From an uncultured Nitrospirales bacterium (lineage in GTDB: Bacteria > Hydrogenedentota > Hydrogenedentia > Hydrogenedentales > CAILVY01): a stretch of 64,000 nt of DNA. Of this stretch, positions 9,827-41,235 are shown piece after piece (within the stretch, counting starts at the first letter, position 1; each line of letters starts with the position of its first letter). The notes under the pieces were generated by a model, which was not told the origin of the DNA, searched no databases, and was given only the letters and a program-made list of their open reading frames with translations. A program made the translations under genes and the position numbers. Location: the NCBI GenBank assembly GCA_964474205.1, contig CAYYRW010000037.1, forward strand, positions 5,599 through 69,598, in the 5' to 3' direction.

Positions 9827-11053
9827 ATGAGTAAAACTTCACGGATGATCTCTATATGTTATGGCTGCGGACAGGAGGCGCCGGTGGAGGCGGGGTTTGT
9901 TTGCGCGGGGTGCGGTGAACCGTGCAGTCTTCGTGTGGCGCGGACAATGCCGAGAGAAATGTTGCGGAAGGCGCCGCGGTCCCTATGGCATTACTTTGAT
10001 CTGTTGCCGGTGCAATCGCGGGAGCATGTGGTGAGTCTGGGGGAAGGCGCGACGCCGTTGGTGGCGGCATCCCGCTTGGCAAAACGTTTCGGTTTCGCGG
10101 AACTGCTGTTAAAGAATGAAATGGGCAATCCGACGGGGTCGTTCAAGGACCGGCAGATATCGGTGGGGATCAGTCATGCGCGGGAGATTGGGGCGGACAC
10201 GGTGGCGGTGGTGTCGTCGGGTAACGTGGCGGCGGCCACGGCGGCGTATGCGGCGCGCGCGGGGATGAAGGCGGTGGTGTTGATGCACGCGCACGCGGGG
10301 GCGGGAAAGATGGCCCAGGCGGCGGCGTATGGGGCCAAGGTGGTCCGGGTGGAATCGGATGCCCCAAGCGCTGTTTTCAACTTGTGTCTGGAGGCCTGCA
10401 AGCGTTGGGGCTGGTATCATCTCTCGACGGCGGGCATGTATGAGCCGTATAACGTGGAAGGGGCCAAAACCATCGCGTATGAATTGTATCAGCAATGCGG
10501 TGAAGTGTTGCCGGACTGCATTCTCGCGCCGGTGGGCGGAGGCGGACTTCTCGGCGGACTCTGGCGCGGTTTTTTGGATTTGCAGCGGTTGGGCGCCATT
10601 TCCCGCCTTCCGAAGCTTGTGGGAGTGCAAGCGTCCGGGTGTGCGCCGTTGCGGCAGGCCATCGAAAAAGGATGGTCGTTTCGAGAATCGTTGACGCATC
10701 CATGGCAGAATCCGAAAACCGTGGCGGGGGGCATTGCGGATGATATTCTCTTCGACGGGCATACCGCGCTTCCGGCCATTCGCGCCACCCAGGGTTCCGT
10801 TATCGCAGTGGATGATGATGCAATTATGGCGGGCCGCGATCTCCTTGCGCGCGAAGAAGGGCTTCTATGTGAACTGACGAGTGCCGTGGTGATTGCCGCG
10901 CTCTCGAAGGTTTCCCCGATGCCGTCTGACGCCCGGGCAGGCTGTCTGCTCACCGGCAACGGCATCAAGGAGACCGGGCTGCTGACGGCCAACGCTTCCG
11001 CATTCCCCGCCATTCCCCCGGACGTATCCTCTCTTGCACGGATTCTTGCGTGA
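9827..11053 (+). CDS. thrC: threonine synthase
   Basis: PLP-lysine motif GNPTGSFKDR, N-terminal Cys4 zinc-ribbon (CYGCG…CAGCG) typical of ThrC; start chosen at ATG 9827 (MSKTSRMISICYGCG); the longer ORF from 9656 overlaps repeat copy C. Confidence 0.85.
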   Translation: MSKTSRMISICYGCGQEAPVEAGFVCAGCGEPCSLRVARTMPREMLRKAPRSLWHYFDLLPVQSREHVVSLGEGATPLVAASRLAKRFGFAELLLKNEMGNPTGSFKDRQISVGISHAREIGADTVAVVSSGNVAAATAAYAARAGMKAVVLMHAHAGAGKMAQAAAYGAKVVRVESDAPSAVFNLCLEACKRWGWYHLSTAGMYEPYNVEGAKTIAYELYQQCGEVLPDCILAPVGGGGLLGGLWRGFLDLQRLGAISRLPKLVGVQASGCAPLRQAIEKGWSFRESLTHPWQNPKTVAGGIADDILFDGHTALPAIRATQGSVIAVDDDAIMAGRDLLAREEGLLCELTSAVVIAALSKVSPMPSDARAGCLLTGNGIKETGLLTANASAFPAIPPDVSSLARILA

Positions 11054-11480
11054 GCCTGTTGCCGTGTGTCCATGGGTGTAATTTTTGTGGTCCACAGATT
11101 ACACAGATTTACACAGATTTTTTGCAAGTTAAATCATGTTATCGGTATCGTTATCGCTATCGTTATCGAACCCTGTTCTTGCTCATTTCTTATTCCGTGT
11201 AAATTAAGCCCATCCGCGTCATCAGCGTTCTGTTTACTGATTTCGGCTGGATTTTGCCGAAAACCATAGCATTTCCCAGTATTCACACTGGCTTGAGGAT
11301 TTACCGCTGGGGTATACTTTCCGTGGATGCGTTGAGGAAACGTGCCCACGGGCACATGCCTGAAATGGGATTGTTTCAGGAACGAAACATTCCACGGGAA
11401 ATGAATGTCTAGTTGTGGAGTTCAAAGTGAAGGGGCCAAGAGCATAAACCGAAGTGGCGTAGTATCAGGAGAGGTCAGTA

Positions 11481-14400
11481 ATGAAGTGCAGAATCATGAA
11501 AAAACAATGCATGGGTATGGTGTTGCTTTGCGCCGTGATTATCGGAGCGGCGGGCGGCACGGGCGCGGAAGTTACGGCGATTCCGCGCGTGTTGTTGGTG
11601 GGCGATAGCTGGTCCGGATTCACCCAAGCCTTCAAAAGCTACGACGCGGCGTTCGCCGCGATGCCGGAACTGGCGAAGTATCGCCAGATCGGGTACATGA
11701 CGGCGATCATGGGCGGGCGCGCGAGCGAATTGAACACGCCCACGATGCTTGGGTACATTTCGAGCGAACTGGACAAGTATCCGACCCTGGACATTGTTCA
11801 TTTGAGCCTTGGGGGCAACGATGTGCTCTGGAGCGATGGCTGGCATCCCTGGATGACGCCGCAGCAAGTGCAGGCGCTGTGGGATAATGTCATTGCGAAT
11901 ATTCAGGCGGTGGTGGACCTCATTCTCGCGAAACGCCCGGACATCCGCATTTACATCTGCGGGTATGACTATGCCAATCATGAAAAAGACAATGCCACCA
12001 CCCGTCAGTTGAATGATGCCTTTGTCAGCCTCGAGTTGGCCAAGCGCAATTTCTTTTCCCAGCCGCAATTCAATAACCGCGTGTTTTATGTCCACAATTT
12101 CGGCATGATGCAATGGACCTATGGGGATGCCGAACCGGTCAATGGCCTTCCCGGCTATGCCGCGCACACCGTTCCGCTGCCCGGGGATTATCCCGCGTAT
12201 GATCCGTGGCCCGGCGGCAATCCCGATTACAATTCCCCCCTCGAAGCCTTGATTGATCTGGACATTCACCTCACGCGCGAGGGGTATCAAATTTTGATTC
12301 AACGGTGCATCGATCAATTTGCCGCCACCTGGCTGAGCTATCCGCGGGTGATCGAAATCCTGCCGTTGGACGGAAAAGCGGCTGAGGCCCAATTCCAGGT
12401 TACGTTCAGCGAAGACGTGACGGGAGTGGACGAAACGGACTTCACCGCCGCGTCGGCCAAGATGACCCACCCAATTATCTCGGTAACCGGTTCCGGCTCT
12501 GTGTATACGGTGACCACGGGCGCTTCCGGTGCCACAAGCCCGGTGACGCTTACAGTCATCGATGATGGCTCCATCCTGGATGGCGACAGCCATCCGCTCC
12601 AAGGGGAACTGGACGGCGGGTATGCGGTGAACGGTCCGTTGTTCTATGATAATCCACAGCCCCCCGCGTCCGATGATTTCGAGGCCGCGCTCCGCTTTTT
12701 CAACATTGCCACCGGCCCTTACCAGGAATTCCTGGGCGGATTCAGTTTCAATCCGGCGGTGTGCGACTCGAATGGCGGCATTTCCAGCATTGATCCGCTG
12801 GTGATCAATGGCAATGGCTTGTTGGACAGTTTCGAGTTCGCGGTCATCAAGCGGTGCCTGGATGACGACACGCTGGACCTGAGCGCGACGGGCGGCGTCA
12901 CCCACAGCATTGTGCAAGACGCCTGGGACAACAATTTCGCGCATATGACGGTTAATTGCGGCGGCGCGGACGGACTGCTGCAATTTGTGCTGCCGGGAAC
13001 GAATACGTTTCTTGCGGGGCTTATGACCCTCGGCGACACCCAATCCGCGGCGCTTCCGGTCATGTTGTTGACGGCACTCTGCGCGGTCCGCGAATTTCCT
13101 CCCTCGGTAACGCATGTGACCGCCCCCAACCAAAAGGATTACATCCTCTTGCCGCAATACCTGGGCTTGAATGGCGACGCCGATGGCGATGGATTCACCA
13201 ACCGCCAGGAATACACCTATTTTGCCCCGGGGGGGCGCGACGCCTATCTGGACGCCGTATTGAATCCCAACATTGTTCCGGAGATCACGGAAGGGGAAGG
13301 CGGTGGCGAAGGCGAAGGCACAACGGAAGGCGAAGGCGAACTGGAAGGGGAAGTGCCGGCAGCACTGGATTTCTGTGCCATCATGGATGAGATTTACGCC
13401 ACGACCCAATTGGAGGCGCTGGCGCCCCTCTTGGATTTATTGGGCGATGACGCCGCGCTCATCAGCCTTATCCAATGCGAAATCGCCGATCTGAATGGGC
13501 CGTTTGTGGACACTGATAACCCGCCGGACGGCAGCCCGGATATGCCGGGGCCCAACGGCCTGCTCGATGGCGCGTATGAATTGAACGTGATCGCGGAATT
13601 GATTAATAACGCGGACCGCTATTTGGAACTGCCCAGTGGAACGGCGATGGGCCAAGGGGATATCGGGGTAGACCCGGTGGCCGTGGCGTCCGCGTATGAA
13701 TTCAATTACAGCGCTTTATACAGCCCGTTGGAAGCCCTCCTGCCGGTGATACCGATCATCGTGCAGAATTTGGCGCATGTGACGCTTACGGAAGAGCAAA
13801 CGGATGAAATCCTCAGCCTCTTCCCGAATCTGCTGTCGATCCTCGCGGGGTATGCCACCCTGGGGGATAACGACTCGATTTCCGTCGTGTTGTTCCTCAC
13901 CAATCTGCTGCATGACTTCGCCCCCGCCCTGCCCACCACCGCGGATGGATTCATCACCTTGAACGGCATCTTGGGACCGAACGGAAACGCCGACGGCGAC
14001 GGATACACCAACCGCCAGGAATACAATTTCTTCGCCACGGAATTCATTGAGGAACCGGTCTGCAAGAAATGCGCAAAGACCTTTGATTGGACCGACCCCA
14101 AAACCTATATCCGTGCGGTCCTCAACCCGCGCATCAATCCCGGATTTCCCGACGGCATGCGCGACTTCTGCAAAACCATGGATGACATCTACGCCACCGC
14201 CCAATCGGATACGTTGGCGCCCCTGCTGGACTTGCTGGGCGATGACGCCGCGCTAATCTCACTGATTCTGTGCGATACGGCCGACCTGAACGGGCCGTTT
14301 GTCGATACCGATACCCCGCCCGATGGCAGCCCCGACATGCCGGGCCCCAATGGCCTGCTGGACGGGGCGTATGAATTGGGCGTGCTCGCGCGACTGATTA

Positions 14401-15344
14401 ATTTCCCAGGCTGGTATGCCGGTCTGGCAAGCGGCGCCTTGTCCGGGCAGGTGACCGCGGGCGTGGACGCCTCACTTGTGGGGCCGGCATTTGAGGCCAA
14501 TTACCTCGCGCTCTATGCGCCCCTGGAATCCCTATTGCCGGTATTGCCGATTATCGTGCAAAATCTGGCCCATATCACCTTGACCGAAGACCAGACCGAA
14601 GAAATCCTCAGCCTGTTCCCCAATCTTCTCTCCATTTTGGCGGGATATGCCACTTTAGGGGATGCGGATTCCTTGAGCGTGGTTCTCTTTCTCACAAATC
14701 TGCTCCACGACTTCGCCCCCGCGCTTCCCACCACCCCGGACGGTTTCGTTACCTTGGACGCCATTCTCGGCCCAGACGGCGATGCCGACGGGGATGGCTT
14801 CACCAACCGGCAGGAATACAACAGTGTTATTCCGCAAGACGCGCGCTCCTATGTGGCCGTCGCGTTGGACCCCAGCACCCATCAAACCCCGGGTGAAGGC
14901 GAGATGGAAGGCGAAGGCGCGGTCGAAGGCGAAGGCGCCATCGAGGGCGAAGGCGCCGTTGAAGGCGAAGGCGCCGTTGAAGGGGAAGGCGTTATCGAAG
15001 GAGAGGGCGCTGTCGAAGGGGAAGGCGCCGTCGAAGGCGATCTGCCGCCCCTCGAACATAGCGCGGACCCCGATGGCAATGGCATTATCAGCCTATCGGA
15101 ACTGCTGCGGGTCATTCAGTTCTTCAATTCCGGCGGGTTCCATTGTCAGGCCGGAACGGAAGACGGTTATGCGCCGGGAGCGGGCGATGAATCCTGCACC
15201 CCACACAGCAGCGATTATAATGAACAGGACTGGCACATAAATCTTTCTGAATTGCTGCGGCTGATTCAGTTCTTCAATTCCGGCGGCTATCATGCCTGTC
15301 CGGCGGAAAACACAGAAGACGGATTCTGCCCAGGCGTTGATTAA
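11481..15344 (+). CDS. giant secreted protein: N-terminal SGNH/GDSL-like hydrolase domain, three NGDADGDGFTNRQEY Ca-binding-like motifs, duplicated ~230-aa module, (EGEGAV)n spacer, C-terminal twin dockerin-like module
   Basis: 1287 aa; signal peptide; GDSWSG ... LSLGGNDVLW ... DxxH-like block; modules at ~13354-14030 and ~14160-14820 >70% identical; C-terminus DGNGIISLSELLRVIQFFNSGG…. Confidence 0.7.
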   Translation: MKCRIMKKQCMGMVLLCAVIIGAAGGTGAEVTAIPRVLLVGDSWSGFTQAFKSYDAAFAAMPELAKYRQIGYMTAIMGGRASELNTPTMLGYISSELDKYPTLDIVHLSLGGNDVLWSDGWHPWMTPQQVQALWDNVIANIQAVVDLILAKRPDIRIYICGYDYANHEKDNATTRQLNDAFVSLELAKRNFFSQPQFNNRVFYVHNFGMMQWTYGDAEPVNGLPGYAAHTVPLPGDYPAYDPWPGGNPDYNSPLEALIDLDIHLTREGYQILIQRCIDQFAATWLSYPRVIEILPLDGKAAEAQFQVTFSEDVTGVDETDFTAASAKMTHPIISVTGSGSVYTVTTGASGATSPVTLTVIDDGSILDGDSHPLQGELDGGYAVNGPLFYDNPQPPASDDFEAALRFFNIATGPYQEFLGGFSFNPAVCDSNGGISSIDPLVINGNGLLDSFEFAVIKRCLDDDTLDLSATGGVTHSIVQDAWDNNFAHMTVNCGGADGLLQFVLPGTNTFLAGLMTLGDTQSAALPVMLLTALCAVREFPPSVTHVTAPNQKDYILLPQYLGLNGDADGDGFTNRQEYTYFAPGGRDAYLDAVLNPNIVPEITEGEGGGEGEGTTEGEGELEGEVPAALDFCAIMDEIYATTQLEALAPLLDLLGDDAALISLIQCEIADLNGPFVDTDNPPDGSPDMPGPNGLLDGAYELNVIAELINNADRYLELPSGTAMGQGDIGVDPVAVASAYEFNYSALYSPLEALLPVIPIIVQNLAHVTLTEEQTDEILSLFPNLLSILAGYATLGDNDSISVVLFLTNLLHDFAPALPTTADGFITLNGILGPNGNADGDGYTNRQEYNFFATEFIEEPVCKKCAKTFDWTDPKTYIRAVLNPRINPGFPDGMRDFCKTMDDIYATAQSDTLAPLLDLLGDDAALISLILCDTADLNGPFVDTDTPPDGSPDMPGPNGLLDGAYELGVLARLINFPGWYAGLASGALSGQVTAGVDASLVGPAFEANYLALYAPLESLLPVLPIIVQNLAHITLTEDQTEEILSLFPNLLSILAGYATLGDADSLSVVLFLTNLLHDFAPALPTTPDGFVTLDAILGPDGDADGDGFTNRQEYNSVIPQDARSYVAVALDPSTHQTPGEGEMEGEGAVEGEGAIEGEGAVEGEGAVEGEGVIEGEGAVEGEGAVEGDLPPLEHSADPDGNGIISLSELLRVIQFFNSGGFHCQAGTEDGYAPGAGDESCTPHSSDYNEQDWHINLSELLRLIQFFNSGGYHACPAENTEDGFCPGVD
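14893..15040 (+). repeat. 18-bp tandem repeats (gaaggcgaaggcgccgtc-like) encoding (E-G-E-G-A-V/I)n
   Basis: about 8 in-frame units inside 11481-15344. Confidence 0.9.
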
Positions 15345-15374
15345 CCCATAGACACTGCGCAAATTGACAATAGT

Positions 15375-15414
15375 GCGGCCGGCAACCGGTGTTGGCCGCA
15401 TTTTTTTGTTTTTT
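15375..15414 (+). terminator. rho-independent terminator candidate
   Basis: GC hairpin gcggccgg-caa-ccggtgttggccgc followed by tttttttgtttttt, 30 nt after stop of giant gene. Confidence 0.65.
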
Positions 15415-15520
15415 CACTTGCCTGGGCGCGTGGATCGTGTATACTTAAATCAACGAGGTGGTGCGGATACGCACAAGAGCAGAGAATGAGAATGACAACC
15501 AGCCTTAAGGAGGCGCACAT

Positions 15521-18500
15521 ATGTTGCACGGAAATTGTGTCCCGAAGTATTTCAGTCAACCCCTGACCGGCATGCTTGTTTTTCTGGGAATGGCGTTTCT
15601 ATTCGTTCCATCGGCGCAGGCCGAGTGTGAAGACAATCTATTGCAAAATCCCGGTTTTGAATCGGGGGCGGATGTGAACTGGGCGGATACTTCGAGTTCC
15701 TCGGCGGAGATTATTCAAGCCACTGTGGCCGCCTACGAGGGGAACTACGCGGCGTGGTTTGGAAACGCGGGCCCCGGTGTCACATGGCAACTGGATCAGA
15801 CCATCCAAATCCCGGCCACGGTAAACGCTCATTTGGAATTTTATTTGCGGACCGTGTCCATTGCCGCAGGGGATATATTCCAGGTCCAAATGGATGGCGT
15901 TACGCTGTTTTCGATGAGTGACAGTTCCCCCGGCTATGCCTCGTACACGCTGATTTCGCTGGATGCGTCTCCGTATGCCGACGGCCAATACCATCTGGTG
16001 CGTTTTATGGGAACGATAGCGGGCAGTTTCTTGGTGGACAATGTCTGCATACGCGCACAAGGCCCCCTCTGCACGGTCCTGATTGATTTTGATGATGTCA
16101 CGGCCCCCGGTTTGTTCGCTGATGCCACGCATCTTACAGACGCCTATACGCAAAAGTATGGGGTGACCTTTGAAGGCCCCGGAGGGAATGACGGCGGAGT
16201 GATTCTGACCAGTGATTCCTGGGGCGCCGTCACCGGGGAAAGTGTCCCGAATTTCCTGGCATTCGACACCTATGGCAATCTTTCCGATGGCGGTACCGCG
16301 CAGGGGCCGGAGACCGTGTACTTCCGAACCCCCGTGGACGGCGTAAGCATGAAAGTAGGCACCGGCACGGGAGGCAGCGCCACCATCGAGGCCTATGATA
16401 ACAACAGTATGGTTATCGCCACCCAAACCGTCACCCTGGGATTCCCGATGCAAACGGTGGCCCTGTCCGTCCCTGGGATTCAATACCTGTCCATTTCGTT
16501 CACCGATTCCACGTTCTTACTGGATGATCTGTGCATTTATGGAGATCCTAATGCGGAATCCTGTTCGGACACGGCCTTTTTCAGCCAAAAACCCCTCAGC
16601 CCATGGGAGACATGGAATGGGTATCCCAGCAACACAGGAAACGATTCCATTATCTACGAGAATTTTTCCAATCTTGCCAAGGCCATCCAACGCGTCCGGT
16701 GGTGGGGATTTGGAGTGGTGCCGGGATATACCGATTGCACGCCTCCGGGCAGTTCGTTTGAAATTTCCCTATGCTACAACAATAGCGGCCTGCCCGGATA
16801 CCCGTTCTACACGGAAACCGTGACGGCCTTGATGAATGAAACCGGACGGGTGTTTGCCGGTTTGGACAACTTTCGCGAATTCCGCTTTGAAGCGGAGTTT
16901 GCCAATCCCCAAAACATCACCGACGGATGGATCATGATCAAAGGCCTGGGCGATTTCTCCACCTGCGGCTTCTACTGGCTGCTGTCGTCCGAGGGGGACA
17001 ATCTCTCCGCCACCGCCGATGAAGCCGGCACAACCTTTAACGCGAACACGTACAATTTCTCTCTTTGCCTGGACACCGGCCCCGGATTCAGGGAAGAATG
17101 CGCGATGGGTTCCGCGTTTTCACAGCGCCCCTCTACCCCGAACTCCATTGCGGAATCCGCAGAGTATTTCTTCAGCAGTCAGTCGCTGGAGTATACCGCC
17201 TACGAGAACTTCTCCGGGCTCACCTGGCCCGTGAAGCACATCACATGGTGGGGTATTGATTATTCCGGCTCCTTTAGCCCCTGCCTGCGCACCACGGGCG
17301 ACTTTACCATCACCGTCTACAATGACGCCGCCGGTCAACCGGGCAGTTCCGTGCTCCAGGAAACTTTGACCGCCACCCGCGTGGAAACCGGGCGGCAATG
17401 GTTATATGGGGCGAATTATTTTCCCGAATACCGCTATGAGGCGGAATTAACAGGTCAGATCGACTTGACGGAGGGTTGGATTTCCATCTATGGCGACAAT
17501 GAAGACGGGGGCTGCGGTTTCGTCTGGGCCAGTTCACCCGTGGGCGATAAATTGTTTTATACTCAGCAGGGCAACAATCCCCCCGTGAGTCAGACCGGAT
17601 TTTCTGATCTAAGTCTTTGCCTCGACACCTACACAGGTCCGGAACAATTCTGCATGGACAAAAGTCAAGCCGGTCAAATCCCGGACAGCCCCCTGGGCAC
17701 CGGGGTGAATTCGGCGCCGAGCGGAGATGATAGCGCCAAACTTGCCTATGAGAAATTCACCGCCCACTGGCCGATCACCAGCCTCCGGTGGTGGGGCGGA
17801 GCCCTCGGGACGGGCTGCTCCAACTATCAGATCGCATTCTATGAGGATAACGGCGGACAGCCCGGCAACGTGGTCCACCAAGAACAGGTTTCCGCCACAC
17901 AGGAACCCACGGGAAGAACCTTCTTTAGCGGCGGCCTGGTCGAATACCAGTTCGACGCTGTCCTGGCCACGCCGTTAACCCTGCGCAACGGCTGGGTGTC
18001 CATTGCGGGCATCAACGGCTCCGGGTGCGGCTTTGCATGGCTCACCGCCCCTTGGGGCGATGGCTTATCGTATTCGCAAACGCCTCCGGAAACGGGACCC
18101 TTCACCGATCTGGGCCGGGATTTGGCCCTATGCCTCGGGGCGGACACCGGGCCCGCGCAAACCTGCGCACCCCATGTCATGACGGGGCAGCCCAGCATGG
18201 ACCCCCTCACTCCCGGGACTAATGGATGGTTTAGCGACGAATTGCTGAATTATGCCACGTATGAGAATTTCTCCGGGCTTGCCGACTCCATAACAGACCT
18301 TTATTGGTGGGGGATTGATTACAATTATGGACTATGCACCCGCACCAGTAACACCTATCAAATTACGTTCTATGAAGACAATGCGGGCCAGCCGGGAGTC
18401 ATTGCCGCCCAATCGGTTGTCACTCCCAAGCGAACCCTGACCGGACGCACCTTCTCTTTCGGTGATTCCTACCCCGAATCCCTGTTCCATGCACGGTTAT

Positions 18501-19561
18501 CCACGCCGGTGCATCTTCCCTCGGGATGGGTTTCCATCGTGGGCATCGGAGATGCCGTCTGTGGCTTTGCCTGGTTGATATCGTCCGAAGGTGATGCCCT
18601 GTCCTATCAAGGGCCCGTCTCTGGCGGAATTACCATCACGAACCACTCGGATCCCAGCCTGTGCCTCAGCCACGAAGAAGAATTGTGCACGGTCCTTCTT
18701 GATGGGGCTCAGGAAGTGCCCCCGAGTGGAAGCGCCGCCGCCGGCACGGCCACCTTCTCCCTGCTCCCGCCGGATACCGTGCGGCTTACCATCCTCCATA
18801 ACGTGACGGACCCCGTTGCGGCGCACATTCATTTGGGCGCGCCCGGGGTGAATGGTCCCGTGGTCCTCGATTTGGGTACCGCAATCAGCCCCATAGAAAT
18901 GACGATGACGCTGGAACAATATGCCGAATTCTCCACGGGCCACTATGTGAATATTCATAGTATGGTCTTCTCGGAGGGTGATATCCGCGGCGATATCGCT
19001 TGTTCACCGATTGAAGGAGAAGGTGGAGTCGAGGGCGAAGGCACCGTGGAAGGCGAAGGCACCGTGGAAGGCGAAGGCGCCGTGGAAGGCGAAGGCGCTG
19101 TGGAAGGTGAAGGCGCTGTGGAAGGTGAAGGCGCTGTGGAAGGTGAAGGCGCTGTGGAAGGCGAAGGCGCCGTGGAAGGCGAAGGCGCCGTGGAAGGCGA
19201 AGGCGCCGTGGAAGGCGAAGGCGCCGTGGAAGGCGAAGGCGCGGTCGAAGGCGAAGGCGGAGGAGAAGATGGATTCCTGACAGCCGATCAGGATCAGAAC
19301 AACCTGATTAGCCTCTCCGAACTGCTCCGCGTGATCCAGTTCTTCAACTCGAACGGATTCCACTGTGAAGCGGGCACGGAAGACGGGTACGCCCCCGGCC
19401 CCGGCGACATAACGTGCGAGCCGTACGACAGCGACTACAACACCCAGGATTGGCATATCAGCCTCTCTGAACTGCTGCGTGTAATCCAGTTCTTCAATTC
19501 AGGCGGCTATCATTATTGTCCCGGTGAAGCCACCGAAGACGGCTTCTGTCCCGGCCCATAA
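15521..19561 (+). CDS. giant secreted protein: CBM4/9-like N-terminal domain, four tandem ~180-aa repeats, CHRD domain, (EGEGAV)n spacer, C-terminal twin dockerin-like module
   Basis: 1346 aa; signal peptide; LLQNPGFESG (CBM_4_9-like); repeats each with YENFS…WWG…FY(E/N)D..GQPG…GW.SI.G…CGF.W; CHRD-like CTVLLDGAQEVPP…AHIHLGAPGVNGPVVLDL; C-terminus nearly identical to that of 11481-15344. Confidence 0.7.
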   Translation: MLHGNCVPKYFSQPLTGMLVFLGMAFLFVPSAQAECEDNLLQNPGFESGADVNWADTSSSSAEIIQATVAAYEGNYAAWFGNAGPGVTWQLDQTIQIPATVNAHLEFYLRTVSIAAGDIFQVQMDGVTLFSMSDSSPGYASYTLISLDASPYADGQYHLVRFMGTIAGSFLVDNVCIRAQGPLCTVLIDFDDVTAPGLFADATHLTDAYTQKYGVTFEGPGGNDGGVILTSDSWGAVTGESVPNFLAFDTYGNLSDGGTAQGPETVYFRTPVDGVSMKVGTGTGGSATIEAYDNNSMVIATQTVTLGFPMQTVALSVPGIQYLSISFTDSTFLLDDLCIYGDPNAESCSDTAFFSQKPLSPWETWNGYPSNTGNDSIIYENFSNLAKAIQRVRWWGFGVVPGYTDCTPPGSSFEISLCYNNSGLPGYPFYTETVTALMNETGRVFAGLDNFREFRFEAEFANPQNITDGWIMIKGLGDFSTCGFYWLLSSEGDNLSATADEAGTTFNANTYNFSLCLDTGPGFREECAMGSAFSQRPSTPNSIAESAEYFFSSQSLEYTAYENFSGLTWPVKHITWWGIDYSGSFSPCLRTTGDFTITVYNDAAGQPGSSVLQETLTATRVETGRQWLYGANYFPEYRYEAELTGQIDLTEGWISIYGDNEDGGCGFVWASSPVGDKLFYTQQGNNPPVSQTGFSDLSLCLDTYTGPEQFCMDKSQAGQIPDSPLGTGVNSAPSGDDSAKLAYEKFTAHWPITSLRWWGGALGTGCSNYQIAFYEDNGGQPGNVVHQEQVSATQEPTGRTFFSGGLVEYQFDAVLATPLTLRNGWVSIAGINGSGCGFAWLTAPWGDGLSYSQTPPETGPFTDLGRDLALCLGADTGPAQTCAPHVMTGQPSMDPLTPGTNGWFSDELLNYATYENFSGLADSITDLYWWGIDYNYGLCTRTSNTYQITFYEDNAGQPGVIAAQSVVTPKRTLTGRTFSFGDSYPESLFHARLSTPVHLPSGWVSIVGIGDAVCGFAWLISSEGDALSYQGPVSGGITITNHSDPSLCLSHEEELCTVLLDGAQEVPPSGSAAAGTATFSLLPPDTVRLTILHNVTDPVAAHIHLGAPGVNGPVVLDLGTAISPIEMTMTLEQYAEFSTGHYVNIHSMVFSEGDIRGDIACSPIEGEGGVEGEGTVEGEGTVEGEGAVEGEGAVEGEGAVEGEGAVEGEGAVEGEGAVEGEGAVEGEGAVEGEGAVEGEGAVEGEGGGEDGFLTADQDQNNLISLSELLRVIQFFNSNGFHCEAGTEDGYAPGPGDITCEPYDSDYNTQDWHISLSELLRVIQFFNSGGYHYCPGEATEDGFCPGP
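19011..19268 (+). repeat. 18-bp tandem repeats encoding (E-G-E-G-A/T-V)n, ~14 units
   Basis: near-perfect units gaaggcgaaggcgccgtg / gaaggtgaaggcgctgtg. Confidence 0.9.
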
Positions 19562-19583
19562 CAACCATTGAGTGATAGCTTGT

Positions 19584-19620
19584 GGGCGGATGAATCAACA
19601 GGTTCATCCGCCCTTTTCTC
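19584..19620 (+). terminator. rho-independent terminator candidate
   Basis: gggcggatgaa-tcaacagg-ttcatccgccc followed by ttttctc, 22 nt after stop. Confidence 0.7.
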
Positions 19621-23596: not shown

Positions 23597-24619
23597 ATGA
23601 CCGGGGAAGAGAATTTTAGCCGCGCGATTGAGTTTCAGGGCCCGGCCTGGCTGCCCTTGCGGCTGGGATGTGATATCGATTGGCTGTATGAGAAAAACGA
23701 ATCCAAACAAAATCGTATTCGCGATCTGCAATCACGCATCCCGGACGATTGGCTGGTGATCAGTGAATCGCCAAAGCCTCAGCAGGAACCGCATACGGAA
23801 AATGGAATCGTTCGCTGGGTGGACCATTGGGGCACGGGCTGGATGGATGATGGCCATGGCGCTAAAACCGAAACCTATCCGCTGGAGGCGGGATATCCCC
23901 TTGCCGACGGCCATCCATTCCCCAATCCGTACGCGCCTGGTCTCTTCGACAATGCGGACCAACTGCTCAAGGATCGTTTGGACAAGTATGTGGCGGGAAC
24001 CGTATGGTTCACTCTCTTTGAACGTCTCTGGATGTTACGCGGGTTTGAAAACATGCTGATGGACCCCTACACGGAACCGGATCACTGGCAAAGGCTGATG
24101 GAACGAATCCTAACCTATAATCTCGTGATGATTGAGGAATGCCTTCGGCGCGGTGTAAAGGGCGTTTACTTTTCCGACGACTGGGGCAGCCAGCGCGGAT
24201 TGCTCATTAACCCGGACGACTGGCGCCGATTCTACAAACCCGCCTACGCCGTCATGTTCCGGAAAGTCCGCGAAGGCGGTGCGCATGTCTGGATGCATTT
24301 GTGCGGCGACATCACCACCATCCTAGGCGACCTCATCGACCTGGGATTGAACGTCCTGAATCCGGTCCAACCTCAAGCCATGGACATTCGCCAACTGGCA
24401 CGTAGTTTCGGCGGTCATGTGTGCTTTAATGGCGGACTGGACGTGCAGGGCACGATGATCCACGGCACGCCCGAGGATGTAAAACGCGAAGCAGAAGAAC
24501 TCGTGCGCCTCTTTGGTTCCTTCAATGGCGGCTACATTGCCGGCGCCAGCCATAGCATCATGCCCGAAACCCCGCTCGACAACGTTATTGCCATGTACGA
24601 GGCATTTCTATCATGTTGA
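23597..24619 (+). CDS. uroporphyrinogen decarboxylase (URO-D)-like family protein (MtaA/CmuA-like)
   Basis: 340 aa; URO-D fold family pattern (…GVYFSDDWGSQRGLLINPDDWRRFYKPAY…HLCGDIT…). Confidence 0.65.
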   Translation: MTGEENFSRAIEFQGPAWLPLRLGCDIDWLYEKNESKQNRIRDLQSRIPDDWLVISESPKPQQEPHTENGIVRWVDHWGTGWMDDGHGAKTETYPLEAGYPLADGHPFPNPYAPGLFDNADQLLKDRLDKYVAGTVWFTLFERLWMLRGFENMLMDPYTEPDHWQRLMERILTYNLVMIEECLRRGVKGVYFSDDWGSQRGLLINPDDWRRFYKPAYAVMFRKVREGGAHVWMHLCGDITTILGDLIDLGLNVLNPVQPQAMDIRQLARSFGGHVCFNGGLDVQGTMIHGTPEDVKREAEELVRLFGSFNGGYIAGASHSIMPETPLDNVIAMYEAFLSC

Positions 24620-28714: not shown

Positions 28715-31351
28715 ATGGGCGAAAACTGGATGAAACTGAGCGACGTGAAACCGCATCGCACCACCCCGATGCTCCGGCAATATTTGCAGGCCAAGGCGGA
28801 GTGCGCGGGTTCCCTGTTGCTTTTCCGGATGGGCGATTTCTATGAAATGTTCTTTGACGACGCCTTCGAGGCGGCGGAGGTGCTGGGGCTTGCCCTGACC
28901 TCACGCGATGGCGCGGACAAGGAACAGCGCGTGCCCATGTGCGGCGTGCCGTTCCGCGCGGTGGACGCCTATGTCGCCAAGCTCATCAAAGCGGGGAAAA
29001 CCGTCACCCTGTGCGATCAGATCGAGGATCCAAAGGAGGCCAAAGGCATCGTCAAGCGTGCCGTGGTGCGCACCATCACCCCCGGCACCGTAATGGAAGC
29101 GAACCTGCTGGAGGAAACCGCCAATAATTACCTGGCGGCGATGTTGGCGCGGGGCGATGGGGCGGGGCTGGCGTTTGTGGACGTCACCACGGGCGAGTTT
29201 CTGGTGGCGCATATTGACGCGCACATCGAGCAAACCTTGCTGGACGAACTCACCCGCATGGCCCCGGCGGAAGTATTGTTGCCCGAAAGCCATGACGAAA
29301 CCTCCCTGAAGCGGCTCAAACTGCATTTCGGCAATATCACCTTTACACAACGTCCGGACGAGGAATTTGACGCAGCCGCGGCCCGGGATGTGATTCTGGA
29401 TATGTTCGGCCTGAGCACCTTGAAGGGGCTTGGGCTGGACGATGCTCCGGAGGCCTCCGCCTGTGCCGGGGCCGTGCTCGCCTATGTCAAAACCACACAG
29501 CGGGACGCCGCCCCGCGCCTGCGTCTCCCCCGGCGCTACAGCCCCTCCGGGTATGTCGTGCTGGATGGCAATACGCAGCGCAATTTGGAACTGATCGAAT
29601 CGCTGGCCGACCGCTCGAAGCGCGGTACGCTCTTGAATGTACTGGACCGCACGCTCACCAGCATGGGCGCGCGCAAACTGCGGCAATGGATTCTCCATCC
29701 GCTGTTGTCCGTGGAGGAAATCCAGGCGCGGCTGAACGCCGTCGAAGAATTTTTTGAACATACCGAGTCGCGCCTTGAATTGCGCGAACATCTCAAAGGC
29801 GTGGCGGATCTCGAACGCCTTATGGGCCGGATCACCGCCAAAACCGCGAATGCCCGGGATGTGCAGGCGCTGGGGCGTTCTCTCGCCCGCGTGCCCGCCT
29901 TGCGCAGCGCCTTGGCGGATGTGAACGCGGAATTGCTGGAAGGCTTGCGTGACGGGCTGGACGCCCTGGAGGAAATCACGTCCGCGATTGATGCCGCGAT
30001 TGTGGACGAGCCGCCGGTTCCCATCACGGAGGGCGGCATTATCCGGGATGGGTATAACGAGACGCTGGACCATTTGCATGCATTGGTGCGCGGCGGGCGC
30101 GACTGGATCGCCACCCTCCAACAGGAGGAACGTCAGCGCACCGGCATCTCCAACCTGCGGGTGGGCTACAACAAGGTCTTCGGCTATTTCATCGAGGTGA
30201 GCAAGGCCAATACGCGCCTGGTGCCGGAAGATTACCAGCGGAAGCAAACGCTGGTGAATGGCGAACGCTATGTGACGCCGGCCCTCAAGGCGAGAGAAGA
30301 GGAAATCCTCACTGCGCAGGAGCGCATGCAAACCCTGGAATATGACCTGTTTGTTGAATTGCGGGACCGTATCGGCGCGGAAGCGCGGCGCATCCAAAAT
30401 ACCGCGGACGCCATCGCCACGCTCGATACGCTGTTGTCTCTGGCGGACGTGGCAATCACCAAAGGCTACTGTAAACCGGACGTGAATGCCTCGGACGAAA
30501 TCCGCATCCGTGACGGACGCCACCCCGTGGTGGAAGACCTGATGTCCCGGGGCGATTTCGTGCCAAACGACACCCTGCTCGATCCCGCCGGAGCCTCCAT
30601 GCTGATTGTGACCGGCCCGAATATGGCGGGCAAGTCCACCTACTTGCGTCAGGTGGCGCTGATCACGCTCATGGCGCAGATTGGGAGTTTTGTGCCGGCC
30701 GCCGAAGCGAAAATCGGCGTGGTGGACCGCATCTTCACCCGCGTGGGCGCATCCGACAATCTCGTCCGGGGCGAGAGCACGTTCATGGTTGAAATGATCG
30801 AGACCGCGAACATTTTGAACTCCGCCACTGAAAAAAGCCTCCTCGTGCTGGATGAAATCGGGCGCGGTACCAGCACCTTTGACGGCATCAGCATCGCGTG
30901 GTCCGTGGCCGAACATATCCACGACCGCGTCCATGCCAAAACCCTCTTCGCCACCCACTACCACGAATTGACCGACCTCGGCAACAAGCTGGAGCACGCC
31001 AGGAACGTCAACGTTTCCGTGCGTGAATGGGGCGAAAAGGTGGTATTCCTCTACCGCATTGTGGACGGGGGCGCGGACCACAGCTACGGCATCCAGGTCG
31101 CGAAACTCGCCGGATTGCCCCAAGGCGTGATCCAGCGCGCCCGTGAAATCCTGGAATCCCTGGAATCCGGCAATGCCGCCAGCGCGGGGCTTCCCCAGCA
31201 GATGTATCTTTTCGGCCCCATGCCCGCCGCGGAACCCAGTGCCGTGGATAAAGAACTTGAAAAGATTGATCCCGACGCGTTATCCCCCCGCGAAGCCCAC
31301 GATCTTATCTACCATCTCAAACACCTCGCCAACAAGCCCCGCCGGAAATAG
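28715..31351 (+). CDS. mutS: DNA mismatch repair protein MutS
   Basis: 878 aa; TPMLRQYL…GDFYEMFFDDA mismatch-binding domain, Walker A GPNMAGKST, MutS signature STFMVEM. Confidence 0.95.
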   Translation: MGENWMKLSDVKPHRTTPMLRQYLQAKAECAGSLLLFRMGDFYEMFFDDAFEAAEVLGLALTSRDGADKEQRVPMCGVPFRAVDAYVAKLIKAGKTVTLCDQIEDPKEAKGIVKRAVVRTITPGTVMEANLLEETANNYLAAMLARGDGAGLAFVDVTTGEFLVAHIDAHIEQTLLDELTRMAPAEVLLPESHDETSLKRLKLHFGNITFTQRPDEEFDAAAARDVILDMFGLSTLKGLGLDDAPEASACAGAVLAYVKTTQRDAAPRLRLPRRYSPSGYVVLDGNTQRNLELIESLADRSKRGTLLNVLDRTLTSMGARKLRQWILHPLLSVEEIQARLNAVEEFFEHTESRLELREHLKGVADLERLMGRITAKTANARDVQALGRSLARVPALRSALADVNAELLEGLRDGLDALEEITSAIDAAIVDEPPVPITEGGIIRDGYNETLDHLHALVRGGRDWIATLQQEERQRTGISNLRVGYNKVFGYFIEVSKANTRLVPEDYQRKQTLVNGERYVTPALKAREEEILTAQERMQTLEYDLFVELRDRIGAEARRIQNTADAIATLDTLLSLADVAITKGYCKPDVNASDEIRIRDGRHPVVEDLMSRGDFVPNDTLLDPAGASMLIVTGPNMAGKSTYLRQVALITLMAQIGSFVPAAEAKIGVVDRIFTRVGASDNLVRGESTFMVEMIETANILNSATEKSLLVLDEIGRGTSTFDGISIAWSVAEHIHDRVHAKTLFATHYHELTDLGNKLEHARNVNVSVREWGEKVVFLYRIVDGGADHSYGIQVAKLAGLPQGVIQRAREILESLESGNAASAGLPQQMYLFGPMPAAEPSAVDKELEKIDPDALSPREAHDLIYHLKHLANKPRRK

Positions 31352-40707: not shown

Positions 40708-41235
40708 TCATGCTGTTGCCGGAGGGGAATTGGGAGAACATCCCGTGAGATACCGTTCACAACGCGGTAATCGCGTCAATAGATATTCATTATCACCAAC
40801 GTGGGAAGCACCCGGTTTCACATCCGGCGCGGAGGGAATCTCGGCACCCCGCCGCGCCAAGGGAACGAACAGGAGAACACCCGGCGCTCCGCATAAGACC
40901 CCTTCCGTCTTCAGTTTCAGCGGTTGTTCCGGAAAGGAATCCGTACGTTCGGTTTGCGCCATTAGCCGTTGAAAATCGAGGACATCCACTCGGCCATCCC
41001 CGTTCACATCCGCCCCCCCTGAATCCATCGAGGCCAGCAACGAAACGGCGACGGCCTGCATATCCAAGACATCCACCCGGCTGTCGTTGTTGATGTCGCC
41101 GGTTCGGCAAACCGACACAGAAGCCCCGTAAAGCGCACTAACGCCAAACACTACGGCCACCATAACGCTTATATACGGTTTGTAAAACACGCAGGCAATT
41201 ACCTCTTGGATAAATTTATACCAAATTATACCCAA
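40708..41235 (-). CDS. small secreted protein with dockerin-type I repeat pair
   Basis: DINNDSRVDVLDMQAVAVSLL and DVNGDGRVDVLDFQRLM Ca-binding loop + helix repeats; N-terminal hydrophobic segment (true start probably internal Met/Val near MVAVVFGVSALYG). Confidence 0.5.
   Translation of the reverse strand: MGIIWYKFIQEVIACVFYKPYISVMVAVVFGVSALYGASVSVCRTGDINNDSRVDVLDMQAVAVSLLASMDSGGADVNGDGRVDVLDFQRLMAQTERTDSFPEQPLKLKTEGVLCGAPGVLLFVPLARRGAEIPSAPDVKPGASHVGDNEYLLTRLPRCERYLTGCSPNSPPATA

What the first reader, a model, noticed from the sequence alone, without database searches (positions are those of the whole stretch)
19270..19561. Shared C-terminal twin dockerin-like, Cys-containing module on two adjacent giant secreted proteins
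Seen in sequence:
- The last ~95 aa of ORF 15521-19561 (NLISLSELLRVIQFFNSNGFHCEAGTEDGYAPGPGDITCEPYDSDYNTQDWHISLSELLRVIQFFNSGGYHYCPGEATEDGFCPGP) and of ORF 11481-15344 (15059-15344) are almost identical.
- Each consists of two D-x-N/D-G-x-I-S-L-S-E-L-L-R-(V/L)-I-Q-F-F-N units, which resemble dockerin type I Ca-binding loop plus helix, each followed by conserved Cys.
- In both proteins the module sits directly after an (EGEGAV)n flexible spacer.
- A separate small protein (40708-41235) carries canonical dockerin repeats.

Inference: this is a cohesin-dockerin-like or novel C-terminal anchoring module used to display very large enzymes/adhesins on the cell surface. The cognate receptor is not in this window.
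Basis: partly seen in the sequence, partly recalled or inferred. Interest (0 to 1): 0.6.

Follow-up and report, generated by a model that had tools for sequence, protein, structure and literature searches.

The report
Dockerin-like calcium module on secreted proteins
Two neighbouring giant secreted proteins end in the same 95-residue, probably calcium-binding, disulfide-braced module, which belongs to a very large, unnamed family found mainly in the uncultured phylum Hydrogenedentota, is predicted to fold like a dockerin, and most likely tethers many different enzymes and adhesins to a common, still unknown partner.

Summary
ORF A (11481-15344) and ORF B (15521-19561) end in the same ~95-aa module (73/92 identical, E 4e-56), each after an 18-bp-repeat (EGEGAV)n linker.

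The module belongs to a large family: 3055 clusters at 50% identity, and at least 526 copies in reference genomes. One Hydrogenedentota MAG contributes 37 loci. In 92% of representatives it sits at the extreme C-terminus. Partner proteins are varied (peptidases, LRR, CHRD, beta-helix, Ig-like domains).

Best reading: a new, disulfide-braced, dockerin-like double F-hand docking module. Calcium binding and docking are both inferred. No cohesin or other partner was found in the window or next to family members.

The parts
11481..15344 (+). ORF A, 1287 aa. It has an N-terminal signal-peptide-like segment, a GDSL/SGNH hydrolase domain, two ~265-aa repeats ending in TSP3-like DADGDGxTNRQEY motifs, an EG-rich linker and the C-terminal module.
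11703..12029 (+). Best Pfam stretch of the GDSL-like lipase/acylhydrolase domain in ORF A (aa 75-183).
   Evidence: PF13472, E 6.5e-8, 33.7 bits (cutoff 32.9)
14907..15040 (+). 18-bp tandem repeat, 7.4 copies, encoding the (EGEGAV)n acidic linker in front of module A.
15057..15341 (+). Module copy A (ORF A aa 1193-1287). Loop 1 is DPDGNGIISLSE at 15066-15101.
15372..15402 (+). Terminator-like hairpin (13-pair stem plus T-run) 28 nt after the ORF A stop codon. A promoter-like site at 15418-15445 precedes ORF B. The two genes are probably separate transcription units.
   Evidence: pattern match only
15521..19561 (+). ORF B, 1346 aa. It has a signal peptide ending ...PSAQA, an N-terminal beta-sandwich-like region, four ~178-aa repeats, a CHRD domain, an EG-rich linker and the C-terminal module.
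16529..18667 (+). Four tandem ~178-aa repeats in ORF B (aa 337-1049, 31-46% identical) with no Pfam match. A low-confidence AF2 model is a beta-sandwich that resembles discoidin/CBM32-type domains.
18689..18997 (+). CHRD domain of ORF B (aa 1057-1159).
   Evidence: PF07452, E 1e-16
19034..19259 (+). 18-bp tandem repeat, 12.6 copies with 96% matches, encoding the (EGEGAV)n linker in front of module B.
19271..19558 (+). Module copy B (ORF B aa 1251-1346), the finding itself. It is a duplicated unit of Ca-loop, helix and Cys-containing hairpin.
19286..19321 (+). Loop 1 (module residues 6-17, DQDQNNLISLSE). It follows the canonical 12-residue EF-hand pattern: D1, D/N3, D/N5, I8, E12.
   Evidence: D6 242/245, N/D8 219/245, D/N10 237/245, I/V13 240/245, E17 244/245
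19313..19348 (+). Helix 1 (module residues 15-26, LSELLRVIQFFN).
   Evidence: AF2 helix H15-26
19364..19417 (+). Segment from Cys32 (19364-19366) to Cys49 (19415-19417), including the FHC / YAP hairpin and the TEDG turn. This is the inferred first disulfide.
   Evidence: C32 243/245, C49 240/245
19433..19471 (+). Loop 2 (module residues 55-67, DYNTQDWHISLSE). It is a 13-residue variant loop with conserved D55, N57, D60 and E67.
   Evidence: D55 245/245, D/N60 242/245, W61 239/245, E67 243/245
19463..19498 (+). Helix 2 (module residues 65-76, LSELLRVIQFFN), identical in sequence to helix 1.
19517..19549 (+). Segment from Cys83 (19517-19519) to Cys93 (19547-19549). This is the inferred second disulfide, which staples the C-terminal hairpin.
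   Evidence: the two Cys are lost together in 27 of 245 domains and singly in only 2-3
19584..19613 (+). Terminator-like hairpin (13-pair stem plus T-run) 23 nt after the ORF B stop codon.
   Evidence: pattern match only
40708..41235 (-). Separate 175-aa protein with a canonical type I dockerin (aa 45-91, about 40963-41103). It does not belong to the module family. It shows that ordinary dockerins coexist with the new module in this genome.

Best explanation
The module is an extracellular, calcium-stabilised, disulfide-braced 'double F-hand' domain. It consists of two tandem units, each a Ca-binding loop, an amphipathic helix (LSELLRVIQFFN) and a short Cys-stapled hairpin, and it is predicted to fold like a dockerin with added hairpins.

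Proposed mechanism:
1. It is fused through an acidic, flexible (EGEGAV)n linker, nearly always at the extreme C-terminus, to dozens of different Sec-exported enzymes and adhesins per genome in Hydrogenedentota.
2. After export, the two disulfides form and two Ca2+ ions bind, which fixes the two near-identical helices into a binding face.
3. That face docks all these proteins onto one common partner on the cell surface or in the extracellular matrix. This is analogous to dockerin-cohesin assembly, possibly with two symmetric binding modes.

Shown here: the family, its architecture, its position in proteins, the conservation of Ca-ligand and Cys positions, the confident predicted fold and its best structural matches.

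Inferred: calcium binding, the disulfide pairing, extracellular location and the docking function. The partner is unknown.
For: - Family size and spread. 157 close hits, mostly Hydrogenedentes MAG proteins. 3055 clusters at 50% identity, 1652 of them with E at or below 1e-30. At least 526 confirmed genomic stretches, with 37 of the best 78 loci from one MAG.
- Position. The module lies within 15 aa of the C-terminus in 134 of 145 representatives. It is also found N-terminal just after the signal peptide (5), internal (6) and in tandem. This fits a portable binding module.
- Linker. The 40 aa upstream have a median 46% E+G against 17% elsewhere in the protein; 18-bp repeats encode it in the window.
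- Partner domains. 73 Pfam families occur among 60 members: M4/M6/M14 peptidases, LRR, CHRD, beta-helix, PKD, cadherin, Big_9, FGE-sulfatase. NCBI names refer only to these domains.
- Export. Signal-peptide-like N-termini in 90 of 127 full-length members by a heuristic, and four near-invariant Cys.
- Ca loops. Ligand positions are 89-100% conserved. EF-hand HMMs hit below threshold, as do PDB calmodulins.
- Disulfides. The Cys pattern is CCCC in 211 domains and CC.. in 27.
- Bridge to dockerin. Divergent members approach the Dockerin_1 threshold: P0125 scores 21.3 bits against a cutoff of 22.9, and P0130 aligns to profile positions 3-54 of 57.
- Internal duplication. Helices 1 and 2 are identical in ORF B.
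- Selection. pN 0.14 against a saturated pS of 0.81 between the two window copies.
Against: - No partner was identified. There is no cohesin (PF00963) hit in any window gene scanned. No recurrent non-module neighbour appears in 78 related loci.
- PF00404 does not match the window modules, and hhalign gives only 21% probability over the loop.
- The near-invariance of the helices across the whole family could reflect core packing in a small domain rather than an interface. I could not inspect model coordinates.
- Passenger-less proteins made of a signal peptide plus one to three modules (P0064, P0052, P0125, P0127) fit a multivalent ligand or matrix binder at least as well as a dockerin-type tag.
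- Calcium binding, disulfides and localisation are not demonstrated.
Confidence: 0.55

Rival explanations
1. The module binds a substrate or matrix component, like a lectin or CBM. It would bind a polysaccharide, an EPS or LPS component, or another multivalent non-protein ligand in a Ca2+-dependent way. Its role would be to target hydrolases and adhesins to the substrate or biofilm matrix, not to a proteinaceous scaffold.
For: - Some members consist only of a signal peptide or TM anchor plus 1-3 tandem modules (P0064, P0052, P0125, P0127, P0136). This is typical of avidity-driven glycan or cell-wall binders.
- No cohesin-like partner or conserved neighbour was found.
- The module is almost invariant across lineages, as expected for a chemically constant ligand.
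- C-terminal placement after a flexible linker is also the usual CBM arrangement.
Against: - The predicted fold (two helices plus short hairpins) resembles dockerins, which are protein-binding modules, and not any CBM or lectin fold.
- Partner domains include many adhesin-type repeats with no obvious shared substrate.
- ORF B may already carry four CBM32/discoidin-like repeats of its own (low confidence).
Confidence: 0.2
2. The module is a C-terminal sorting or secretion domain, functionally like the T9SS CTD. It would be recognised by an outer-membrane export or attachment machinery of Hydrogenedentota, and possibly removed or covalently processed afterwards.
For: - It is about 95 aa and sits at the extreme C-terminus in 92% of representatives and about 94 of 101 ORFs in related loci.
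- There are dozens of cargo proteins per genome, with Sec signal peptides and unrelated passenger domains. This is the same genomic signature as T9SS CTDs.
Against: - About 8% of representatives carry it N-terminally, internally or in tandem, which a terminal sorting signal would not tolerate.
- There is no match to Por_Secre_tail or any NCBIfam sorting-domain model.
- The fold is helical with EF-hand loops, not a beta-sandwich.
- Divergent copies occur in probable archaeal membrane proteins, which lack an outer membrane.
Confidence: 0.15
3. The module is only a structural calcium-binding cap. It would stabilise, solubilise or protect the C-terminus of large secreted proteins, or buffer Ca2+, without binding any specific partner.
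For: The EF-hand loops and disulfides are the only features directly readable from the sequence. No partner was found.
Against: - The module is separated from the rest of the protein by a long flexible linker, so it cannot stabilise the passenger domains.
- Extreme conservation across thousands of unrelated fusion partners argues for a shared external interaction.
Confidence: 0.07

Closest known systems
Bacterial type I dockerin (Pfam PF00404), e.g. C. thermocellum CelS/Xyn10B dockerins; PDB 2ccl_B, 4dh2_D, 5nrk_B, 8x39_B
   Same: - Tandem duplication of a Ca-binding loop followed by a helix (an F-hand with no entering helix).
- Two near-identical helices.
- Usually C-terminal after a flexible linker on secreted proteins.
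- Dozens of copies per genome, with occasional N-terminal or internal placement.
- Divergent family members almost reach the PF00404 threshold.
   Different: - No PF00404 hit for the window modules; hhalign gives 21% probability over the loop only.
- Glu rather than Asp at loop position 12 (per my recollection of the dockerin consensus), and the second loop has 13 residues.
- About 95 aa against about 65 aa. Each unit carries an extra beta-hairpin (GYHxC...TEDG[YF]xPG).
- Four conserved Cys, probably two disulfides; dockerins have none.
- The unit period is about 50 residues against about 33.
- No cohesin partner is known.
- It coexists with canonical dockerins in the same genomes (L080).
EF-hand pair (Pfam PF13499, PF00036, PF13405; calmodulin-like)
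   Same: Loop 1 is a textbook DxDxDGxIxxxE loop with Glu at position 12. EF-hand HMMs and PDB calmodulins are the only sequence-level matches.
   Different: - All hits for the window modules are below the gathering thresholds (18.8-20.1 bits against 25).
- There is no entering (E) helix before either loop in the model.
- It is extracellular and disulfide-bonded, and it has hairpin insertions.
T9SS C-terminal sorting domain (Por_Secre_tail) of Bacteroidota
   Same: Same genomic logic: a module of about 90 aa at the extreme C-terminus of many Sec-exported proteins with unrelated passenger domains.
   Different: The fold class differs (beta-sandwich against helical Ca-loop domain). No HMM match was found. 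The module is position-tolerant (N-terminal, internal, tandem).
Non-cellulosomal dockerin-like modules of Bacteria and Archaea, noted in the discussion of PMC3821032
   Same: Atypical, sequence-divergent dockerins occur outside cellulosome producers, often without a known cohesin. That paper describes an intramolecular 'clasp' that stabilises the dockerin fold. The disulfides here could play a comparable role (my inference).
   Different: Those modules are still recognised as dockerins by sequence. This family is not, and it has its own conserved Cys-hairpin extension.

Membership tests
Dockerin type I (PF00404) | Sequence match to the Dockerin_1 HMM at or above the gathering score (22.9 bits) | tested here: not met
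   There is no PF00404 hit for module A at E up to 10 or for module B at E up to 1. Only 2 of 35 mostly divergent members hit at E at or below 0.1, best 0.0085. P0125 as a whole protein scores 21.3 bits. The control, the window protein at 40708-41235, scores 37.5 bits.
Dockerin type I (PF00404) | Two tandem segments, each a Ca-binding loop plus helix (F-hand) without an entering helix | tested here: met
   Units 1 and 2 align with identical helices. The AF2 model has helices 15-26 and 65-76, each preceded by a coil loop and with no helix before it.
Dockerin type I (PF00404) | Loop consensus D-x-[ND]-x-D-G-x-[IV]-[ND]-x-x-D (Asp at position 12). The consensus is from my knowledge of the family. 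| tested here: not met
   Position 12 is Glu in 244/245 (loop 1) and 243/245 (loop 2) domains. Loop 2 has one extra residue.
Dockerin type I (PF00404) | Three-dimensional fold superposable on solved dockerins | tested here: inconclusive
   [not shown]
Dockerin type I (PF00404) | Binds a cohesin module | not testable with these tools
   No cohesin Pfam hit appeared in the window genes scanned. No conserved neighbour was found in 78 loci. Several window ORFs have no Pfam hit and cannot be excluded.
EF-hand (PF00036 / PF13405 / PF13499) | Canonical 12-residue loop with ligands at positions 1, 3, 5 and 12 (Glu) and a hydrophobic residue at 8 | tested here: met
   In loop 1: D 242/245, N/D 219/245, D/N 237/245, I/V 240/245, E 244/245.
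EF-hand (PF00036 / PF13405 / PF13499) | HMM score at or above the gathering threshold | tested here: not met
   The window modules score 18.8 and 20.1 bits against a cutoff of 25 for EF-hand_6. 14 of 35 mostly divergent members hit EF-hand_6 at E at or below 0.1.
EF-hand (PF00036 / PF13405 / PF13499) | Helix-loop-helix: an entering helix before each loop | tested here: not met
   AF2 secondary structure shows residues 1-14 and 43-64 as non-helical.
T9SS C-terminal sorting domain | Match to the sorting-domain HMMs, a beta-sandwich fold and a strictly C-terminal position | tested here: not met
   No Pfam or NCBIfam hit. The model is helical with short hairpins. 11 of 145 representatives carry the module N-terminally or internally.

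The most novel reading that the evidence does not exclude
Hydrogenedentota, an uncultured and presumably diderm phylum, may run its own phylum-wide protein-display or multi-enzyme assembly system. It would be built on this disulfide-braced 'second dockerin' and a receptor of a kind not yet recognised (not a Pfam cohesin). Dozens of peptidases, lipases, adhesins and glycan binders per cell would plug into it. Divergent relatives in probable archaeal membrane proteins would point to a wider, ancient family of extracellular docking modules.
Probability: 0.25. Interest if true: 0.75.

Novelty: new variant of a known kind. Interest (0 to 1): 0.55.

Why it matters
The module is one of the commonest features of the Hydrogenedentota secretome. 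There are at least 37 loci in one MAG and 3055 clusters at 50% identity in public data. It nevertheless matches no Pfam-A or NCBIfam model above threshold, and public annotation either ignores it or mislabels it: JGI names two fragments 'YbcJ S4-like'.

Naming it would do three things.
- It would let annotators recognise the exported, probably surface-associated proteome of this uncultured phylum.
- It would explain many orphan 'partial hypothetical proteins', probably left where the 18-bp linker repeats break assemblies.
- It would give a concrete bait of 95 aa, with a high-confidence model, for finding the receptor.

If the receptor is a protein, this would be a cohesin-dockerin-like assembly system outside the Firmicutes, in a probably diderm organism. 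It could also be a new orthogonal Ca-dependent, disulfide-stable docking pair for protein engineering.

Tried and rejected
I re-framed them.
- The first Pfam call failed because the small dockerin ORF is on the minus strand.
- Chance or a recent duplication is rejected: E 4e-56 with saturated synonymous sites.
- NCBIfam gave only spurious linker-driven hits (Amuc_1099, GEGP) and nothing for the module.
- Profile searches of PDB sequences gave only marginal EF-hand loop hits and no dockerins.
- hhalign against a three-sequence dockerin alignment gave 21% probability over the loop only. That dockerin profile was thin, so the test is weak.
- The AFDB Foldseek library was not available.
- An exact look-up of ORF B in public assemblies returned nothing.
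- Clustering the non-module neighbours of 78 related loci to find a conserved partner gave only a common oxidoreductase family.
- Pfam scans of 36 other window ORFs found no cohesin.
- Literature searches for the motif, for Hydrogenedentes/Hydrogenedentota with dockerin, EF-hand or C-terminal domain, and for lipase/extracellular found nothing specific.
- The first self-BLAST for internal repeats returned nothing; a fragment-based rerun worked.
- Fungal Cys-rich dockerins and the Excalibur domain were considered from memory. I did not pursue them, because no Pfam hit to either appeared at E up to 10.
Full report
**1. Observation**

ORF A (11481-15344, 1287 aa) and ORF B (15521-19561, 1346 aa) lie side by side on the plus strand. 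In frame, the last 95-96 residues are 15057-15341 and 19271-19558. They align without gaps at 73/92 identity, E 4e-56.

At nucleotide level the two modules are 71% identical. The synonymous proportion is saturated (pS 0.81) and the non-synonymous proportion is low (pN 0.14). Of the 73 identical residues, 39 use different codons. The similarity is therefore kept by selection on the protein and does not come from a recent duplication.

No third copy exists in the window. Both modules follow 18-bp tandem arrays that encode (EGEGAV)n: 14907-15040 with 7.4 copies, and 19034-19259 with 12.6 copies. A 13-pair terminator-like hairpin follows each gene at 15372-15402 and 19584-19613 (pattern match only).

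The small protein at 40708-41235 is on the minus strand. It carries a true type I dockerin (PF00404, 37.5 bits).

**2. The family**

A search with module B returned 157 proteins at E at or below 1e-3 (the best 120 listed reach 6e-25 or better). All are short, many are marked 'partial', and most come from Candidatus Hydrogenedentes/Hydrogenedentota MAGs. Several paralogues come from single MAGs, for example seven PLI09_ loci. Two hits are labelled Kiritimatiellae, but they sit on very short contigs.

A profile search over 1.84 billion cluster representatives found 3055 clusters at E at or below 1e-3, of which 1652 are at or below 1e-30. Of the best 78 loci, 37 come from one Hydrogenedentota MAG (JAKQOG01) and 18 from another (CAILVY01). 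A further 19 come from a MAG titled 'uncultured Nitrospirales' (CAYXPO01). One CAYXPO01 locus, L001, is 85% identical and syntenic with window 14763-19617. A window housekeeping gene (URO-D, 23597-24619) is 80% identical in protein to the JAKQOG01 MAG. The window is therefore from a Hydrogenedentota-type genome, and the Nitrospirales label is doubtful.

**3. Where the module sits and what it is fused to**

In 134 of 145 high-scoring representatives the module ends within 15 residues of the C-terminus. Five carry it directly after the signal peptide, six carry it internally, and 18 gave more than one domain call, a few of which are overlapping calls on one copy. In the related loci, 101 ORFs carry it, about 94 of them at the very end. 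Module genes are often adjacent to each other, as they are in the window.

The 40 residues upstream have a median of 46% Glu plus Gly, against 17% in the rest of the protein. A simple heuristic finds signal-peptide-like N-termini in 90 of 127 full-length members.

Sixty full-length members hit 73 different Pfam families. These include InlB B-repeat, LRR, CHRD, beta-helix, Big_9, PKD, cadherin-like, FGE-sulfatase and M4, M6 and M14 peptidases. NCBI product names describe only these passenger domains. In the window, ORF A has a GDSL/SGNH hydrolase domain and ORF B has a CHRD domain.

**4. Anatomy**

The consensus is HxADQNxDxxIxLSELLRVIQFFNSxGxHCxxGTEDGYAPGxGDxxCxPHxSDYNPQDWxIxLSELLRxIQFFNSGGYHxCPxxxTEDGFCPG.

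- Loop 1 (residues 6-17) is a canonical EF-hand loop. Position 1 is D in 242/245 domains, position 3 is N/D in 219, position 5 is D/N in 237, position 8 is I/V in 240 and position 12 is E in 244.
- Loop 2 (residues 55-67) has one extra residue but keeps D55 (245/245), N57, D/N60 (242), W61 (239) and E67 (243).
- The two halves are an internal duplication, and the helices are identical in ORF B.
- Four Cys are near-invariant. The pattern over 245 domains is CCCC in 211, CC.. in 27 and .... in 2, with only five other cases. C83 and C93 are lost together while C32 and C49 are kept. This suggests C32-C49 and C83-C93 disulfides (inference).

**5. Comparison by sequence**

Pfam gives no dockerin hit for the window modules, even at E up to 10 for module A. 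It gives only sub-threshold EF-hand hits on loop 1 (18.8-20.1 bits against a cutoff of 25). NCBIfam gives nothing for the module. Profile searches of PDB sequences give only marginal calmodulin-type hits, E 0.04-1. hhalign against a three-sequence dockerin alignment gives 21% probability over 18 loop columns.

Among 35 mostly divergent modules, 14 hit EF-hand_6 and 2 hit Dockerin_1 at E at or below 0.1. In whole-protein scans, P0125 scores 21.3 bits on Dockerin_1 (cutoff 22.9). One module of P0130 aligns to dockerin profile positions 3-54 of 57 at E 0.004. By sequence, then, this is an EF-hand-superfamily loop in a new domain, with a faint bridge to dockerins.

**6. Comparison by structure**

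AlphaFold2 with the 85-sequence alignment gives a very confident model: pLDDT 96 and pTM 0.84. It has helices at 15-26 and 65-76 and short strands at 30-32, 40-42, 80-82 and 92-94. There is no helix before either loop.

**7. Function**

The data fit a portable extracellular binding module: Sec export, Cys pairs, Ca loops, a flexible acidic tether, unrelated passenger domains, dozens of copies per genome and tolerance of N-terminal, internal and tandem placement. I favour Ca-dependent docking to a common partner, which is the working principle of dockerins, at about 0.55.

Three readings compete with this:
- A glycan or matrix binder, supported by proteins that consist only of a signal peptide plus one to three modules.
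- A C-terminal sorting domain, weakened by the non-terminal copies and by the probable archaeal occurrences.
- A purely structural Ca cap, weakened by the long linker.

No partner was found. There is no cohesin in 36 scanned window ORFs, and no recurrent non-module neighbour in 78 loci. Five or six window ORFs have no Pfam hit and remain open. Canonical dockerins coexist with the module in the window and in L080, so the module is not simply this lineage's version of the ordinary dockerin.

**8. Novelty**

I found no paper that mentions the motif or a Hydrogenedentota-specific C-terminal module. Atypical dockerins in non-cellulosomal Bacteria and Archaea are a known theme (PMC3821032). I therefore rate this a new variant of a known kind. 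It is a large, undescribed domain family with dockerin-like architecture, its own Cys-hairpin extension and an unknown partner.

**9. Limits**

- Calcium binding, disulfide pairing, localisation and docking are all inferred.
- The taxonomic spread rests on the minority of hits that carry names.
- The AFDB structure libraries and full profile-profile databases were not available.

Noticed in passing
L079 6001-7974 (P0136) and L080 6001-8142 (P0130): Divergent copies of the module occur in membrane-anchored proteins with 2-3 tandem modules that mostly lack the second Cys pair. The contigs carry TFIIE_alpha, Rhomboid, SpoIIM and archaeal-type ProRS neighbours, so they look archaeal. L080 also encodes a canonical Dockerin_1 protein at 10852-11916. 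The family may therefore reach well beyond Hydrogenedentota.
   Followed up: partly
[not shown]
   Followed up: partly
window 13368-14822 (+), ORF A aa 630-1114: Two ~265-aa repeats (70-86% identical), plus a weaker third copy near aa 445-600, each end in thrombospondin-type-3-like DADGDG[FY]TNRQEY calcium motifs. There is no Pfam domain apart from a weak TSP3_bac hit. A similar region is present in the M6 peptidase P0133.
   Followed up: partly
window 44218-52209 (-): A 2663-aa protein with several WD40 beta-propellers, RHS repeats and a C-terminal DUF7619. Short RHS-repeat fragments that end in the module (P0016, P0018) were among the homologues, but this window protein does not carry the module.
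   Followed up: no
window 40708-41235 (-): A 175-aa protein with a hydrophobic N-terminus, one canonical type I dockerin (aa 45-91) and an uncharacterised tail of about 80 aa. It sits between a sugar transferase gene and a radical-SAM gene. Its partner is unknown.
   Followed up: partly
L001 (CAYXPO010000168.1) against window 14763-19617: The MAG titled 'uncultured Nitrospirales bacterium binchicken_co117_52' holds a locus that is syntenic with the window at 85% nucleotide identity, plus 18 further module loci. Other evidence places the window with Hydrogenedentota (URO-D is 80% identical in protein to JAKQOG01). The record's taxonomic label is probably wrong.
   Followed up: partly
P0242, P0254, P0039, P0006, P0037, P0050 (module at residues ~26-121): When the module sits directly after the signal peptide, it is a distinct subtype. 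The second unit mostly ends GYHxxCG[TS]ED.FAPG (P0050 lacks the Cys). It has one shifted Cys and no Cys93, so the second disulfide is absent or re-paired.
   Followed up: no
window 14907-15040 and 19034-19259; hits P0001-P0120: Most database homologues are 75-167-aa 'partial' ORFs that begin inside the EG-rich linker at contig ends. The near-perfect 18-bp repeats probably break short-read assemblies, which would leave orphan module fragments and hide the family. JGI labels two such fragments 'YbcJ (S4-like RNA binding protein)', which looks like a spurious weak S4_2 match.
   Followed up: partly
L002, L004, L006, L028, L031, L055, L061, L069: Genes for module-bearing proteins are frequently arranged in same-strand tandem arrays of two or three, as in the window. 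No other gene family is consistently associated with them.
   Followed up: yes
window 11475-13409 (-), 28901-31123 (-), 39338-40564 (+) and others: Long ORFs lie antisense to real genes, up to 740 aa. These are probably composition artefacts of the 57-60% GC sequence and not genes.
   Followed up: no
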